From: the human T2T-CHM13v2.0 reference genome, Homo sapiens
Length of the DNA stretch: 64,000 bases
Direction: 5' to 3' (one strand)
Assembly: GCF_009914755.1 (NCBI RefSeq)
Contig: NC_060929.1
Part shown: positions 51,061 to 60,076 of the stretch, in pieces
How the letters are laid out: every line of letters begins with the position of its first letter
Position numbering within the stretch: the stretch's first letter is position 1
Program-made: the position numbers and the translations under genes
Notes under the pieces: generated by a model
Databases searched by the model: none
What the model was told of the DNA's origin: nothing
The model's input: the letters and a program-made list of their open reading frames with translations, nothing else

Positions 51061-52902
51061 ACAGTGTACCCTTGTCCTTTAAAAGCTAGGGTGAATTTAA
51101 GACCTATAATTGATAATTAAAGGTCCTCTCCATGACCCTATAACACTCCAATACCAGCTTGTTGTCAGCGTAAACAAGGGCATAGCCTGAAAGCACTGAG
51201 GCCACTAACAACCCATAGCCTTCCTATCAAAAACCCTTAACTCAGTAACCCGTGGATGGCCCAAATGCATTCACTCTGTAGCAGCAACTGCTTTGCTAAA
51301 GGAAGAAAGTAGAAAAATAACTTTTAGAGGAAACCTCAATGTGAGCACACCTCACCAGTTCAGAACTATCCTAAGTCAAAAAAGCGAAAAGGTGGCTTAC
51401 TAACTCAAAAATCTTAAGGTATGGGGCTATTCTGTTAGAAAAAGATGATTTAACATTAACCACTGATAATTCCCTTAACCCAGCAGGTTTCCTAACAGGG
51501 GATCTAAATCATAATTAATTACCATACAAAGATCAGACCAGACATAGAAGGAACTCCCTTCAGGACAGGATGATAGATGGTTCCTCCCGGGTGACTGAGG
51601 GAAAAAACCACAGTGGGTATTCAGTAAGTGATAGGGAAACTTTTGTAGAAGAAGGGTTGGGAAAATTGCCTAATAGTTGGTAAGCTGTTTGCACTCAGAT
51701 AAGCCTTAAAGTACTTACAGAATCAGGAAGGGGTCATCTATACCAATTCTAAGTTAATTTAAACTAAACAAAGTGTTATTAGTAGCAAAGGATAATTGAA
51801 GTCCCAAACTTACAAGGTTTTCAATAAAGGTAAAGTTTGCTAAAAGTTAGCAGTGTAACCTGTATTCTCCTAACTTTTAATCTTGTGGCCTTAGGCAGTC
51901 TAGTCCACAGACATGAAGGAAGTTTGCTTTGGAAAAGAATGGTTATCATCTTTGGGAAAAAAAAACGGGGGGGAGAATTTATGTAAAAAGAAAGTTACGT
52001 GGTAGAGAGATCTGTTCCAAGATGGCTGAATCGGAACAGCTTCGGTCTGCAGTGCCCAGCGTGACTGATGCAGAAGATGGGTGATTTCTGCATTTCCAAT
52101 TGAGGTACCTGGTTAATCTCACTGGGACTGGCTGGACAGTTGGTGCAGCCCACAGAGGGCGAGCTGAAGCAGGGCAGGGCATTGCCTCACCCGGAAAGTG
52201 TGATGGGTAGGGGGATTTCCCTTTCTTAGCCAAGGGAAGCTGGGACAAACTGTACCTGGAAAAACAGGACACTCCCACCCAAATACTGCACTTTTCCCAA
52301 GGTCTTAGCAACTGGCAGACAAGTGCTATTGCTGAGGCTCGAGTAGGTAAACAAAGTGGCTGGGAATTTCGAACTGGGTGGAGCCCACTGCAGCTCAGCA
52401 AAGCCTACTGCCTCTAGACTCCACCTCTGTGGGCAGGGCTTAGCTGAATAAAAGGCAGCAGACAACTTCTGCAGACTTAAATGTTCCTGTCTGACAGCTC
52501 TGAAGAGAGCAGTGGTTCTCCCAACATGGCATTTGAGCTCTGAGAATGGACAGACTGCCTCCTCAAGTGGGTCCCTGAACCCTGTGTAGTCTAACTCAGA
52601 TACATCTCCCAGTAGGGGCCGACAGACGCCTCATGTAGGTGGGTGCCCCTCTGGGATGAAGCTGTTCTGCAATATTTGCTGTTCTGCAGCCTCTGCTGGT
52701 GATACCCAGGCAAACAGGTAAACAGGGTTTGGAAGAGACCTCCAACAAACTTCAACAGCTCTGCAGCTGAGGGACCTGACCGTGAAAAGGAAAACTAACA
52801 AACAGAAAGCAATAGCACAACATAAACAAAAAGGACATCTACACCAAAACCCTATCTGCAGGTCACCAACATCAAAGACCAAAGGTAGATAAAACCACAA
52901 AG

Positions 52903-53928
52903 ATGGGAAGAAACCAGAGCAGAAAAGCTGAAAATTCTAAAAATCAAGTGTCTCTTCTCCTCCAAAGGATCACAGGTCCTCACCAGCAATAGAACAAAGC
53001 TGGACAAAGAATGACTTTGACAAGCTGACAGAAGTAGGCTTCAGAAGGTTGGTAATAACAAACTTCTCTGAGCTAAAGGAGCATGTTCGAACCTATCGCA
53101 AGGAAGCTAAAAACCTTGAAAAAAGGTTAGACGAATGGCTAACTAGAATAAACAGTGTAGAGAAGACCTTAAATGACCTGATGGAGCCGAAAACCATGGC
53201 ATGAGAACTTTGTGACACACGCAGAAGCTTCAATAGCTGATTTGATCAAGTGGAAGAAAGGGTATCAGTGATTGAAGATCAAATTAATGAAATAAAGTGA
53301 GAAGACAAGGTTAGAGAAAAAAGAGTAAAAAGAAATGAGCAAAGCCTCCAAGAAATATGGGACTATGTGAAAATACCAAATCTACGTTTGATAGGTGTAC
53401 CTGAAAGTGATGGGGAGAATGGAACCAAGTTGGAAAACACTCTGCAGGATATTATCCAGGAGAACTTCCCCAACCTAGCAAGACAGGCCAACATTCAAAT
53501 TCAGGAAATACAGAGAACACCACAAAGATACTCCTCGAGAAGAGCAACCCCAAGACACATAATTGTCAGATTAACCAAAGTTGAAATGACGGAAAACATT
53601 AAGGGCAGCCAGAGAGAAAGGTCGGGTTCCCACAAAGGGAAGCCCATTGGACTAATAGCAGAACTCTCGGCAGAAACCCTACAAGCCGGAAGAGAGTGGA
53701 GGCCAATATTCAACATCCTTAAAGAAAAGAATTTTCAACCCAGAATTTCATATCCAGCCAAACTAAGCTTCATAAGTGAAGGAGAAATAAAATCCTTTAC
53801 AGACAAGCAAATGCTGAGAGATTTTGTCACCACCAGGCCTGCCTTACAAGAAAGAGCTCCTGGAGGAAGCACTAAACATGGAAAGGAACAACTGGTACCA
53901 GCCACTGCAAAAACATGCCAAATTGTAA
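52903..53928 (+). pseudogene. L1 ORF1p remnant
   Basis: ATG at 52903; PNLRLIGVPESDGENGTKLENTLQDIIQENFPNL; stops and frameshifts. Confidence 0.92.
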
Positions 53929-53991
53929 AGACCATCAATGCTAGGAAGAAACTGCATCAACTAATGAGCAAAATAACCAGCTAACATCATA

Positions 53992-57822
<3,831 letters not shown>

Positions 57823-58552
57823 ACAATGAGATTACTTGTAGACAGGGCAGGGAACATTACACACTGGGGCCTGTCGTGGGGTGGGGGGCTAGGGGAGGGA
57901 TAGCATTAGGAGAAATACCTAATGTAAATGAGGAGCTGATGGGTGCAGCAACTAACGTGGCACATCTATACCTATGTAAGAAACCTGCACGTTGTACACA
58001 TGTATCCTAGAACTTAGAGTATAATAAAAAAAATCAGGCTATCTAGAATATACATTAAAAAAGGAGTAAGCAGTAATGAAGAAGAAAAAATTAGAAATAT
58101 TGATTAAGAAAATGATAATTGTTGAAATAAAACTGTGAACGCAATGACTAGCAGAAGAATGAGTAGGTAAGGGAAAGAGTCAAGAAGCACTCCCTAAAGG
58201 CATTAGGAAGGAATAAAGTGATAGAAAGTGTAAGAGAAACATTAAGAGGTATGGTGGATAGAAATAGAAATGTGAATATCGCCTCAAAGAAGTCCCCAAA
58301 GGAGAAAAAAGCAGTAAATGGAGTAGAAGAACTACTTGAAAAAATAATACCAAGTATTTTCCTGAGTTAAACAAATATGTAAGACATCAGATTGAATGTG
58401 TTCAGAGAGTTCCAAATAGAATGGATAATTAAGCTTTTGCCTTCCCGCTCCCTCCTTCTTTCCCCGTTTTGTTGCGAGGCTTCCCAACTGCCCCTTGACT
58501 CTTCTCCCCCTTTTCCACCCGCCTGCGCCCCCGCAGGAGCCTGGGACCGCCT

Positions 58553-58672
58553 GTGGGCAGCCATACCAGCCTGAAAGCACCCAGTCTCATCTGATCTCGG
58601 AAGCTAAGCAGGGTAGGCCTGGTTAGTGCTTGGATGGGATTCCGACCGGGAATGCTGGGTGATGTAGGCTTT
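58553..58672 (+). pseudogene. 5S rRNA pseudogene
   Basis: About 83% identical to human 5S by hand alignment to the recalled sequence; CTGATCTCGGAAGCTAAGCAGGGT, GGTTAGT and TTGGATGGGA retained; ends TGTAGGCTTTT. Confidence 0.93.
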
Positions 58673-59819
58673 TGGCTTCCCACTCCCTCCCTCTTTCCCA
58701 CTTTTGTCGCCGGGCTTACCAACCGCCTCCTGACTCTTCTCCCCCTTTTTCACCCAAAAAGAAGAAAAAGAAAAAAGAAAGAATGGATAAGTAAATACCC
58801 CACATTAAATACATTATAATAAACATTTCAAAGAGAAAATTATAAAATGTTCCAGAGATAAAATTGCTCAGTAAAGATGAATAACTATCAGATTATTATC
58901 AGACATTTCCATAGCAACACTATAAAGGTAAGAAAGCAATAAAAATTGTTCAAAATTAAAAAAAAATTATATGGTAAATTCTTGTCCTAAAATAAATTAA
59001 CTCGTTGTTTAAAGAAAGGGATGTTTGCAACAAGTCAGAAAGTTGAGGCATGTTGAGGAATTGTCTGTGAAAGTCGTGAAAAAAAAGTTATAAAAGAGAA
59101 TTTATGCAAGAAATGTTGCATAATTTAATAGTAATTAGGCTTCCTGAGTGTAAAACTATTGAAGAAACACTTTATGTGCAAGGTGTGTAAGAAAAATAAA
59201 ATATACTTTTGGTTAAAAGATTATAAGGAGGCATAAGAATGTGGATTTTTACCTACATTAAAAGGTTAAAAATATTTTGTTTTAAAGGTTTAAGCAAGTT
59301 TTAAAACGTTAATTGTAAAGGAAATTCTATGTGTAAACATATTAGCTAAAGTTAAAGGGGTATCATGCAGTTTTTCCGTGGACTGGACGTTAAAATAAAA
59401 GCACAGTGGGTTTTTCTTAAAACACTAACTGCTCTTTAACAAAATTATAAAAGGTTAAATAGAGTCTATGGAAATCTTACCTTATGGTCAGACATTAAAA
59501 TTTGATAATTATGTCTATAGGGTTTTATTAAAATCAAGTTTAACATTAATAACACACTAATATAAAGGTAAAATTTAGCTTATCTGGTATAAAATCATAC
59601 AGGAAGCATTGTCAAATGTAAAAGGGTGTTTGGGTTTCTTTGGTCTAACAACTAATAAAAATAGGTGCCAAAGGAAATTTCTCAGCAGGGAGGCACTAAG
59701 GACTATAAAGTCCACTGCTGGTGTTCCCAAATTTAAAACAAAAGATCAGTTTCTCAGAAATTATACACTTGGTTTATCTTCCACTTTCCTTTCTCTCAAA
59801 ACTAAATGTCTTTTAGCAC

Positions 59820-60076
59820 AGGTACCACCCCTAGAATTTCCAGTAAATCAGCACCAGCCTGGGGATCACACTCTTGTCAAAGGGTGGAAAGAAGGAAAAT
59901 TTGTGCCAGCCTGGGAAGGACCCTACCTAGTGCTGCTAACCACTGAGACTGTTGTTCGTACCGCGGAAGGGGGTTGGACACATCACACCCGAGTCAAGTA
60001 AGCGCCGTTATCATCAGAATCATGGGCCATTGTTCCTGGATCAAGCCCTACCAAACTAAAGCTAAGAAAAGTGTAG
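59820..60076 (+). pseudogene. HERV-IP integrase C-terminal remnant
   Basis: QPGDHTLVKGWKEGK...WEGPYLVLLTT...GWTHHTRVK. Confidence 0.85.

What the first reader, a model, noticed from the sequence alone, without database searches (positions are those of the whole stretch)
58418..58794. Retrocopy of a 235-bp-period 5S rRNA tandem array
Seen: the 5S pseudogene (58553-58672) lies between two ungapped copies of an 88-bp pyrimidine-rich sequence (58433-58520 and 58668-58755, 75/88 identical). Each copy begins with the 5S 3' end GCTTTT. The insert therefore reads [end of 5S]-spacer-[5S]-spacer, period 235 bp, followed by an A-rich tail (58756-58779) and a 14/15 TSD AGAATGGATAA(T/G)TAA (58418-58432, 58780-58794). 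Known: functional human 5S units are ~2.2 kb, and ordinary 5S retropseudogenes stop at the mature 3' end. Inference: L1 machinery copied a multimeric transcript from a different, short-spacer 5S array, reading through the T4 terminators. That would show such an array was transcribed in the germ line. I recall tightly clustered 5S pseudogenes near the chr16 pericentromere as a candidate source (unverified).
Basis: partly seen in the sequence, partly recalled or inferred. Interest (0 to 1): 0.8.

Follow-up and report, generated by a model that had tools for sequence, protein, structure and literature searches.

The report
5S read-through retrocopy moved by L1
This 5S rRNA pseudogene is an old L1-made copy of an unusual 5S-locus RNA longer than one repeat unit, first inserted on chromosome 6 and probably later carried to chromosome 5 behind a jumping L1 element; it is a curiosity, not a working gene.

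Summary
Two 88-bp copies (75/88) flank a 5S pseudogene, followed by an A-rich tail, inside a 14/15 target-site duplication.

The interpretation needs four corrections.

1. The "spacer" is the ordinary ancestral flank of 5S rDNA. The functional 1q42 unit carries the same sequence, displaced by an antisense Alu. About 20 pericentromeric 5S units also have it.

2. The 235-bp period is a deletion artefact. A paralogue at chr6:41.069 Mb has the same insert at the same site and keeps about 57 more bases. These are 3' flank to about +147, then 33 nt of 5' flank, giving a period near 295-300 bp.

3. The two spacers were almost identical at insertion: 2 fixed differences in 87 columns.

4. The insert did not land on chr5. 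An empty-site paralogue lies 35 kb from the chr6 copy. The chr5 copy sits directly behind a full-length L1. It ends at AATAAA plus A9, with a 17/21 duplication around L1 plus block. This points to L1 3' transduction.

A 252-bp 5S array does exist on chr16 and is already catalogued, but it is not the source. The junction is unique in the genome.

The parts
51984..52004 (+). Upstream target-site duplication of the composite insertion (L1 plus carried block)
   Evidence: Matches 58957-58976 at 17/21 with one gap. 77 of 2000 shuffles reach the score. It abuts the L1 5' end.
52005..58033 (+). Full-length L1PA-like element (about 6.03 kb): 5' UTR start, ORF1 ATG near 52903, endonuclease, reverse transcriptase, own A tail ending about 58033
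   Evidence: The 5' UTR start was read and ORF1. Pfam Exo_endo_phos matches 54246-54680 (E 2.3e-9) and RVT_1 matches 55642-56460 (E 8e-32). The 3' end and A tail were read. The subfamily name is my recollection of the 5' UTR type, not a tool result.
58034..58957 (+). Carried block: an old L1-ORF1-like sequence bearing the 5S retrocopy, homologous to chr6:41068524-41069484 (minus strand)
   Evidence: BLAST gives 83% over the whole block including indels. The flank is 92-93% identical. Homology to chr6 stops at 58957, while chr6 continues to match its empty paralogue. That the flank is L1-ORF1-like is my reading; Pfam found nothing in 58167-58367.
58418..58432 (+). 5' target-site duplication of the 5S retrocopy, inherited from the chr6 event
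   Evidence: 14/15 match with 58780-58794. A single copy is present at the empty site in L068.
58433..58552 (+). Spacer copy A: last 6 nt of a 5S gene (GCTTTT) plus 3' flank to about +115
   Evidence: 75% identical to the post-Alu flank of the 1q42 unit over 108 nt. 72-85% identical to 24 other places.
58553..58562 (+). Junction remnant: leftovers of 3' flank (about +121) and 5' flank (about -24 to -18) after roughly 57 nt were deleted
   Evidence: Pairwise and multiple alignments with the chr6 paralogue and genomic units.
58553..58670 (+). 5S rRNA pseudogene RNA5SP190. Bases that are truly 5S-derived begin near 58563 (5S position about 11).
   Evidence: Rfam RF00001 at 70.2 bits. 86% identical to the 1q42 gene over positions 8-120. 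It carries the GGGATTCC variant shared with the pericentromeric units.
58668..58755 (+). Spacer copy B: 5S 3' end plus 3' flank to about +83, ending at the A tail
58756..58779 (+). A-rich tail of the 5S retrocopy
   Evidence: Read. The chr6 paralogue has a longer, purer A run at the same place.
58780..58794 (+). 3' target-site duplication of the 5S retrocopy
58938..58943 (+). AATAAA polyadenylation signal of the carried transcript
   Evidence: Read. It ends 14 nt before the A run that closes the homology with chr6.
58958..58966 (+). A9 tail closing the carried block
   Evidence: Read. chr6 and its empty paralogue read TTAAAGAAAG / TTGAAGAAG here instead.
58957..58976 (+). Downstream target-site duplication of the composite insertion (overlaps the A9 run)

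Best explanation
Three successive events explain the locus.

1. Original insertion, roughly 25-55 million years ago. This date uses my recalled neutral rate of about 1-2.2e-9 per site per year. L1 machinery reverse-transcribed a polyadenylated read-through RNA from a 5S rDNA locus. It inserted the copy into an old L1-ORF1-like sequence on what is now chr6 (6p21), creating the 15-bp duplication AGAATGGATAATTAA. The RNA read: 5S 3' end, 3' flank to about +147, 33 nt of 5' flank, a full 5S, 3' flank to about +83, then poly(A). That is about 1.3 units of a roughly 295-300-bp unit. All of it is ordinary ancestral 5S rDNA flank from before the Alu insertion. The template was most likely a DNA-level 5S-short spacer-5S dimer or short-unit array, made by deleting about 1.9 kb of spacer. 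It was probably transcribed by Pol II in the manner of the 5S-OT transcript, because six runs of four or more T lie inside the copy. The source belonged to the lineage that also gave the pericentromeric and acrocentric 5S units, not to the chr16 array.

2. Transfer to chr5. A full-length L1PA-like element lying just upstream of that block (or of a lost sister copy) read through into it. The transcript was polyadenylated at an AATAAA and retrotransposed to chr5, carrying about 925 bp with the 5S retrocopy inside. This is 3' transduction.

3. Later decay on chr5. The copy lost about 57 bp at the spacer/5S junction, which produced the apparent 235-bp period. CpG decay produced the 13 differences between the two 88-mers.

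Shown: the retrocopy hallmarks, the empty site, the identity of the flank, the longer ancestral junction, the near-identity of copies A and B at insertion, and the boundaries of the chr5 block. Inferred: the polymerase, the nature of the template, and the transduction mechanism.
For: Retrocopy:
- Target-site duplication 14/15 plus an A tail.
- An empty-site paralogue with a single 15-mer and no Rfam 5S hit.

Flank identity:
- In the 1q42 unit an antisense Alu follows the gene. The Alu is bracketed by a 14-nt repeat of the 5S 3' end. The sequence after it is 75% identical to spacer positions 3-109.
- Genomic 5S units on chr1, 4, 9, 12, 14, 15, 20, 22 and Y carry the same flank directly after the 5S.

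Longer ancestral junction:
- The chr6 copy has the same flanks (92% over 377 nt) and the same insertion site, with about 57 extra nt.
- Of 47 matches to the 386-nt chr6 insert, only chr6 itself and the window span position 156. None of the other 45 crosses it by more than 3 nt. So the extra bases are genuine 3'-flank and 5'-flank sequence.

Copies A and B:
- A four-way alignment gives 65 identical columns, 2 fixed A/B differences, 15 singletons, 3 locus-specific and 2 other, out of 87 ungapped columns.

Order of events:
- K2P distance between window and chr6 is 0.082. Filled versus empty is 0.166-0.171. 31 sites are shared by the two filled copies against the empty one.

Lineage:
- In the ML tree the two inserts pair (91/86) and are sister (82/84) to the pericentromeric family. 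The chr16 monomers form a separate clade (100/100).

DNA-level short-spacer forms exist:
- The chr16 array has period 252.
- chr7:130.0 Mb holds a 5S-spacer-partial 5S dimer.

Transduction:
- A full-length L1 at 52005-58033 lies directly upstream on the same strand.
- Homology to chr6 runs from the L1 tail to 58957, where AATAAA plus A9 sit. chr6 goes on matching its empty paralogue beyond that point.
- A duplication of 17/21 flanks L1 plus block: 77 of 2000 shuffles reach the score. The candidate just after the L1 tail is reached by 640 of 2000.
Against: - No source with the chr6 junction exists in this genome. The 26-mer at up to 3 mismatches is found once, on chr6 itself. Only 40 of 260 candidates were scored.
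- No L1 lies upstream of the chr6 block in this assembly. The nearby L1 is 5'-truncated, on the other strand and 3.4 kb away. The transduction source is therefore missing.
- The first 25 nt or so after the L1 tail align poorly with chr6, with several small indels.
- The composite duplication is A-rich, has 3 mismatches plus a gap, and is only modestly better than chance.
- No canonical poly(A) signal precedes the tail of the 5S retrocopy at about +83 (read), so how that RNA acquired its tail is unexplained.
- The insert's 5' end falls within 6 nt of the 5S 3' end. That is an odd coincidence for random 5' truncation.
- The support placing the insert beside the pericentromeric family is moderate (82/84).
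- No other primate genome could be examined, so all dates rest on a recalled rate.
Confidence: 0.68

Rival explanations
1. Template switching or skipping by the L1 reverse transcriptase on RNA from ordinary long-spacer (about 2.2 kb) 5S units. The enzyme copied a polyadenylated 5S read-through RNA back to about -33. It then jumped to about +147 of the 3' trailer, either on a second 5S-locus RNA or further along the same long transcript, and stopped near the 5S 3' end. On this reading no short-spacer DNA template ever existed.
For: - The junction is unique in the genome.
- Copies A and B were nearly identical at insertion, as expected for two RNAs from one homogenised array.
- The junction shows at most 1-2 nt of microhomology (read).
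- L1 chimeras with small RNAs, including 5S, are documented (10.1101/2025.02.02.635956, passages read).
Against: - Both partners would have to be rare flank-bearing transcripts of the same locus.
- Neither -33 nor +147 is a known RNA end.
- Documented 5S/L1 chimeras are mostly antisense, truncated 5S pieces fused to an L1 3' end, which is unlike this element.
- DNA-level short-spacer 5S forms with junctions in the same 20-nt region do exist on chr7 and chr16.
Confidence: 0.25
2. One reading: an L1-mediated insertion at this chr5 site of a multimeric Pol III read-through transcript from a 235-bp-period 5S array, such as the one on chr16.
For: - The hallmarks are present in the window.
- A short-period 5S array exists on chr16.
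Against: - The same insert, at the same site with the same duplication, lies on chr6 in a longer form.
- The chr5 block is bounded by an L1 tail on one side and AATAAA plus A9 on the other.
- The chr16 units have another junction, lack the GGGATTCC variant and form a separate clade.
- Six runs of four or more T lie inside the copy.
Confidence: 0.03
3. The chr5 copy arrived as DNA (a small duplicative transposition of about 0.9 kb from chr6), or as a separate retrocopy of a chr6 transcript. On this reading the L1 next to it is an unrelated neighbouring insertion.
For: - No progenitor L1 lies at chr6.
- The alignment over the first 25 nt after the L1 tail is poor.
- A weaker alternative duplication exists, 58048-58059 against 58967-58978, about 8/12. 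I judged this by eye and did not score it.
Against: - AATAAA plus an A run exactly at the end of homology argues for an RNA intermediate rather than DNA transfer.
- The block starts at, or within about 22 nt of, the L1 tail.
- The best duplication brackets L1 plus block, and none was found for the L1 alone.
Confidence: 0.2
4. Rolling-circle transcription of a roughly 300-bp extrachromosomal circle (microDNA size) containing one minimal 5S unit (-33 to +147). This would give an RNA longer than one unit, which was then retrocopied.
For: - A unit length of about 295-300 bp with a single non-homologous junction.
- Copies A and B essentially identical.
- No chromosomal source.
- The size class of microDNA is my recollection, not a tool result.
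Against: - There is no direct evidence.
- The poly(A) at about +83 and the six T runs are no better explained.
- Chromosomal short-spacer forms exist and are the simpler explanation.
Confidence: 0.05

Closest known systems
L1-mediated processed retropseudogenes of small RNAs (5S retropseudogenes)
   Same: It has a target-site duplication, an A tail and sense 5S sequence, and it is dispersed. It is annotated as RNA5SP190.
   Different: Most human 5S retropseudogenes are 3'-truncated and tailless: 555 were counted in PMC5322556 (passages read). This one runs past the gene into the flank, contains 5' flank, and spans about 1.3 repeat units.
L1 3' transduction
   Same: The layout is a full-length L1 with its own A tail, then about 925 bp of foreign single-copy sequence, then AATAAA and a second A tail, with a duplication around the whole.
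   Different: The progenitor L1 is absent from the homologous chr6 locus in this assembly. The cargo itself contains an older retrocopy with its own duplication, which mimics a local insertion.
5S-OT, the Pol II transcript overlapping 5S rRNA genes (Hu et al. 2016, known to me only through reviews PMC5487532, PMC6463246 and PMC11260338; passages read)
   Same: It is a sense transcript that contains 5S and continues into the 3' flank. It is made by Pol II, which would ignore the T runs. That 5S-OT itself is polyadenylated is my recollection; the passages I read do not state it.
   Different: Human 5S-OT (354 nt) ends in the antisense Alu, whereas this copy has the Alu-less flank. The copy also includes an upstream partial unit. 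Neither polymerase authorship nor the 5S-OT start and end sites could be checked here.
Short-period 5S arrays (16p11.1 5sRNA array, Warburton 2008, PMC2588610)
   Same: They are built from the same modules, 5S plus proximal 3' flank. Their junctions fall in the same region of the flank.
   Different: The chr16 array has period 252 bp and about 69% identity between units. It lacks about 15 nt of the 5S, has a different junction and forms a separate clade. It is genomic satellite-like DNA, not a retrocopy.
5S/L1 chimeric insertions (10.1101/2025.02.02.635956; also Cell Genomics 2026)
   Same: 5S sequence was mobilised together with an L1 in one event on chr5.
   Different: In those chimeras a truncated, mostly antisense 5S piece is fused to the 5' side of an L1 3' end. 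Here the 5S lies 3' of a full-length L1, inside carried genomic sequence.

Membership tests
L1-mediated retrocopy (target-primed reverse transcription) | Target-site duplication flanking the insert, verified against an unoccupied site | tested here: met
   14/15 duplication. The empty paralogue L068 has a single 15-mer.
L1-mediated retrocopy (target-primed reverse transcription) | 3' poly(A) tail not encoded at the target | tested here: met
   The tail at 58756-58779 is longer in chr6 and absent at the empty site.
L1-mediated retrocopy (target-primed reverse transcription) | Insertion at an L1 endonuclease-like site (TT/AAAA type; motif recalled) | tested here: inconclusive
   The site reads AAAT/AGAATGG: a pyrimidine/purine step in an A-rich context, but not the consensus.
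   The chr6 paralogue keeps about 57 more nt, made of genuine flank.
   The junction 26-mer at up to 3 mismatches occurs once in the genome. 45 of 45 other matches break at the junction. Only this one human assembly was searched.
   The spacer is homologous to the flank of the 1q42 unit and of about 20 long-spacer units.
L1 3' transduction | L1 on the same strand immediately 5' of the carried sequence, with its own A tail | tested here: met
L1 3' transduction | The carried sequence ends at a poly(A) signal and a second A tail | tested here: met
   AATAAA at 58938-58943 and A9 at 58958-58966. Homology to chr6 ends there.
L1 3' transduction | A single target-site duplication around L1 plus cargo | tested here: met
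   17/21 match. 77 of 2000 shuffles reach the score, so support is modest.
L1 3' transduction | A progenitor L1 directly upstream of the homologous sequence at the source locus | tested here: not met
   None is present at chr6 in this assembly. It could be a lost or unfixed allele.
5S-OT-type Pol II transcript as template | Sense RNA containing 5S plus 3' flank, with poly(A) | tested here: met
   The structure of the 3' half of the insert.
5S-OT-type Pol II transcript as template | Transcribed by Pol II | not testable with these tools
   There is only the indirect argument from six internal runs of four or more T.
Tailless 5S retropseudogenes | 3'-truncated inside the 5S, with no A tail | tested here: not met
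   The 3' end of the 5S is complete, with a flank extension and an A tail.

The most novel reading that the evidence does not exclude
In an anthropoid ancestor's germ line there existed a transcribed minimal 5S repeat of about 300 bp, covering -33 to +147 (upstream promoter region, gene and proximal flank). It was either a now-lost short-spacer array or dimer, or a microDNA-sized extrachromosomal circle transcribed round and round. This retrocopy and its transduced daughter would be its only surviving record. Independent short-spacer 5S forms on chr7 and chr16, with junctions in the same 20-nt region, would then mark a recurrent way in which 5S units shed their spacers.
Probability: 0.4. Interest if true: 0.6.

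Novelty: new variant of a known kind. Interest (0 to 1): 0.35.

Why it matters
For annotation, RNA5SP190 should not be read as a simple 5S retropseudogene. Its first 10 bases are not 5S sequence. Its flanking duplication was made on chr6, not on chr5. It is cargo of an L1 3' transduction, so hallmarks of a local insertion can be inherited and mislead.

For 5S biology, the element preserves the Alu-free ancestral flank of primate 5S rDNA. It also shows that a polyadenylated RNA longer than one 5S unit existed in the germ line. That fits Pol II read-through of 5S loci of the 5S-OT type, and it fits repeated formation of short-spacer 5S units.

None of this suggests a present-day function.

Tried and rejected
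- Splicing as the origin of the spacer/5S junction. I first noticed an acceptor-like CCTCCTTCAG just before the 1q42 gene. The removed segment would begin CA and end CC in the related units, with no GT-AG, GC-AG or AT-AC. The chr6 copy also retains 33 nt of 5' flank. Rejected.

- Segmental duplication between chr5 and chr6, suggested by a 3.5-kb match at 91%. That match is two independent copies of a younger L1 with different ends and flanks. Real homology is limited to about 0.9 kb. Rejected.

- The chr16 array as source. Rejected on junction, diagnostic bases and tree.

- Post-insertion local duplication as the origin of the two 88-mers. Rejected because the intervening bases are ordered 3' flank, 5' flank, 5S, as in a repeat unit, and a single duplication brackets the whole.

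- Pol III termination as the origin of the 3' end. The RNA ends 6 nt past the last T run, not inside it.

- The chr7 dimer as a second retrocopy. It has no A tail and its flanks are unclear. Left open.

- Literature searches found no description of this element, or of a 5S retrocopy spanning more than one unit. These were full-text word searches of the held library only.

- I could not classify the L1 subfamilies (no repeat library) and could not look at other primate genomes.
Full report
**1. The observation**

- A 91-nt direct repeat at 85% identity with spacing 235 (D1). It contains the 88-mers 58433-58520 and 58668-58755, which match at 75/88. The best 88-nt match in 200 shuffles of the region was 48.
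- An Rfam 5S_rRNA hit at 58553-58670, 70.2 bits, E 5e-14.
- An A-rich tail at 58756-58779.
- A 14/15 direct repeat at 58418-58432 and 58780-58794 (D3).

**2. What the spacer is**

The window's own genome could be searched. The 120-nt spacer (58433-58552) matched 27 places. Two are the window's own copies. The rest lie on chr1, 4, 6, 7, 9, 12, 14, 15, 16, 20, 22 and Y. In most of them a 5S-like sequence sits directly upstream of the spacer, and further GC-rich flank follows it.

The functional array lies at chr1:227.746-227.877 Mb on the minus strand, with a period of about 2,240 bp. 47 genes were scored there. In one of its units (L029) the layout after the gene is:

- a T-rich stretch and an antisense Alu;
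- then a 14-nt repeat of the 5S 3' end;
- then sequence 75% identical to spacer positions 3-109.

So the Alu inserted into the terminator region and pushed the original flank about 330 bp away. The spacer is simply the ancestral proximal 3' flank of 5S rDNA. Reviews of the 5S-OT transcript place this Alu insertion in Anthropoidea (PMC5487532, PMC6463246; passages read).

**3. A paralogue shows the original structure**

chr6:41068732-41069117 (minus strand, L003) carries the same insert, at the same position, in the same L1-ORF1-like flank.

- The flank is 92% identical over 377 nt.
- Rfam finds a 5S there at 42.7 bits.
- Between spacer A and the 5S, chr6 has about 57 more bases than the window.

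When the 386-nt chr6 insert was searched against the genome, only chr6 itself and the window matched across position 156. None of the other 45 of 47 matches crossed it by more than 3 nt. They covered either 10-156 (3' flank) or about 156-372 (5' flank from -33, 5S, 3' flank).

The extra chr6 bases are therefore genuine 3' flank (to about +147) joined to genuine 5' flank (-33 to -1) and the true start of the 5S. The window retains only fragments of these at 58553-58562, so it has lost them by deletion. Two deletions of roughly 32 and 26 nt fit. The original unit length was about 295-300 bp, not 235.

**4. Copies A and B were nearly the same when inserted**

I aligned A and B from both loci, giving 87 ungapped columns:

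| Class | Columns |
|---|---|
| Identical in all four | 65 |
| Singletons | 15 |
| Locus-specific changes at CpG sites | 3 |
| Other | 2 |
| Fixed A versus B differences | 2 |

**5. Empty site and order of events**

Searching the upstream flank found a third, weaker paralogue at chr6:41034226 (plus strand). It lies 35 kb from the filled chr6 copy, in inverted orientation. It reads straight through a single copy of the 15-mer, with no insert and no 5S hit.

Over 284 shared flank positions:

- K2P distance between window and chr6 is 0.082.
- Filled versus empty is 0.166-0.171.
- 31 sites unite the two filled copies.
- 11 changes are private to the window and 10 to chr6.

The insertion therefore happened after the filled and empty copies split, and before the chr5 and chr6 copies split. 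With a recalled neutral rate of 1-2.2e-9 per site per year, that is roughly 25-55 million years ago.

**6. How the copy reached chr5**

The 3.5-kb, 91% match between the loci is a red herring. It is two separate copies of a younger L1 with different ends and flanks. True homology is confined to window 58056 (perhaps 58034) to 58957.

- On its left the block abuts the A tail of a full-length L1 on the same strand, at 52005-58033. The evidence for that L1 is the 5' UTR start, the ORF1 ATG near 52903, and the endonuclease and reverse transcriptase domains.
- On its right the homology stops at an A9 run (58958-58966), 14 nt after an AATAAA (58938-58943).
- The chr6 copy continues to match its empty paralogue for several hundred bases beyond that point. 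So chr6 has the source-like context and chr5 is derived.
- The sequence just before the L1 (51984-52004) matches the sequence at and after the A9 run (58957-58976) at 17/21. 77 of 2000 shuffles reach that score. For the best candidate just after the L1 tail, 640 of 2000 do.

This is the anatomy of an L1 3' transduction. A template-switch chimera between L1 RNA and a chr6 transcript would look the same.

Points against:

- No L1 lies upstream of the chr6 block in this assembly.
- The first 25 nt or so after the L1 tail align poorly.
- The duplication is A-rich and imperfect.

**7. Where the template came from**

- It is all on the minus strand, at 38,373,2xx to about 38,383,xxx and 38,392,xxx-38,394,5xx.
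- TRF gives period 252, with 33.2 + 9.4 copies at about 69% matches.
- An array of 5sRNA at 16p11.1 (9.5 kb) is already listed by Warburton et al. 2008 (PMC2588610, Table 2A; passages read). I could not map coordinates between assemblies.

It is not the source, for three reasons:

- Its units join the flank to the 5S differently and lack about 15 nt of the 5S.
- They lack the GGGATTCC variant that both inserts share with the pericentromeric and acrocentric units.
- They form their own clade at 100/100 support.

In the same ML tree the two inserts pair (91/86) and sit beside the pericentromeric family (82/84). The tree used 21 rows. I left out four: the two partial A copies, chr1:226.747, which lacks most of the 5S, and chr12:34.08a, which lacks half of it.

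A second DNA-level short-spacer form lies at chr7:130.0 Mb. It reads 5S, about 140 nt of 3' flank, 12 nt of 5' flank, then a partial 5S. In the tree it groups with the 1q42 unit (84/81).

So spacer-shedding has happened more than once, with junctions within about 20 nt of each other. But the chr6 junction itself occurs once in the genome, tested as a 26-mer at up to 3 mismatches.

**8. Mechanism**

- Splicing is excluded, because there are no usable splice sites and the 5' flank is retained.
- The copied RNA contains six runs of four or more T, and it ends 6 nt beyond the last of them. Pol III is therefore an unlikely author. A Pol II read-through RNA of the 5S-OT kind fits better (inference).
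- No AAUAAA precedes the tail, which stays unexplained.

I favour transcription of a DNA-level short-spacer dimer or array at about 0.5. I put reverse-transcriptase template switching or skipping on long-unit RNA at about 0.25-0.3. The data cannot separate them. A roughly 300-bp circle is a remote third.

**9. Comparison and novelty**

Most human 5S retropseudogenes are tailless and 3'-truncated (PMC5322556, passages). Known 5S/L1 chimeras are antisense fragments fused to L1 3' ends (10.1101/2025.02.02.635956, passages). This element is neither.

It combines known processes: retrocopying, 3' transduction and deletion. The unusual part is the template. My searches of the held library found no description of it.

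I rate it a new variant of a known kind, of modest interest.

Noticed in passing
L029 (chr1:227745280-227748398, functional 5S unit): The antisense Alu of the functional 5S unit is bracketed by a 14-nt duplication that is the 3' end of the 5S gene itself, including its T run. The gene's present terminator context is therefore Alu-tail-derived, and the ancestral flank lies about 330 bp downstream.
   Followed up: partly
L060-L067 (chr16:38,373,2xx-38,394,5xx): A 5S-derived satellite with period 252 bp, and a 503-bp two-unit higher-order pattern reported by TRF. It has about 42 units in two blocks separated by about 8 kb, and a 171-bp alpha-satellite-like repeat lies next to it. It is probably the 16p11.1 5sRNA array of Warburton 2008.
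   Followed up: partly
L022 1340-1690 (chr7:130.0096 Mb): An isolated fragment reading 5S, short spacer, partial 5S, with no A tail. The second 5S stops at about position 57. Similar short motifs lie on both sides. Its origin (DNA capture or something else) is unclear.
   Followed up: partly
L004 and L006 (chr1:226.747 and 226.750 Mb): Two 5S-unit relics 2.9 kb apart, about 1 Mb proximal to the functional array and on the opposite strand. One has lost most of its 5S.
   Followed up: no
L003 / L068 (chr6:41.034 and 41.069 Mb): An inverted pair of paralogous segments 35 kb apart on chr6 (K2P about 0.17). Only one member carries the 5S retrocopy, so the pair gives a built-in empty site.
   Followed up: yes
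window 59579-59998 (+): An open frame fragment matches the C-terminal domain of MLV-type integrase (Pfam MLVIN_C, E 2.5e-6, just under the curated cut-off). This suggests an endogenous retrovirus remnant just downstream of the block.
   Followed up: no
(pericentromeric units on chr4, 9, 15, 20, 22, Y): A family of 5S units spread by pericentromeric and acrocentric duplication shares GGGATTCC in place of GGGAGACC in the box C region of the 5S. It also has a distinctive 3' flank. The retrocopy shares the 5S variant but not the flank changes.
   Followed up: partly
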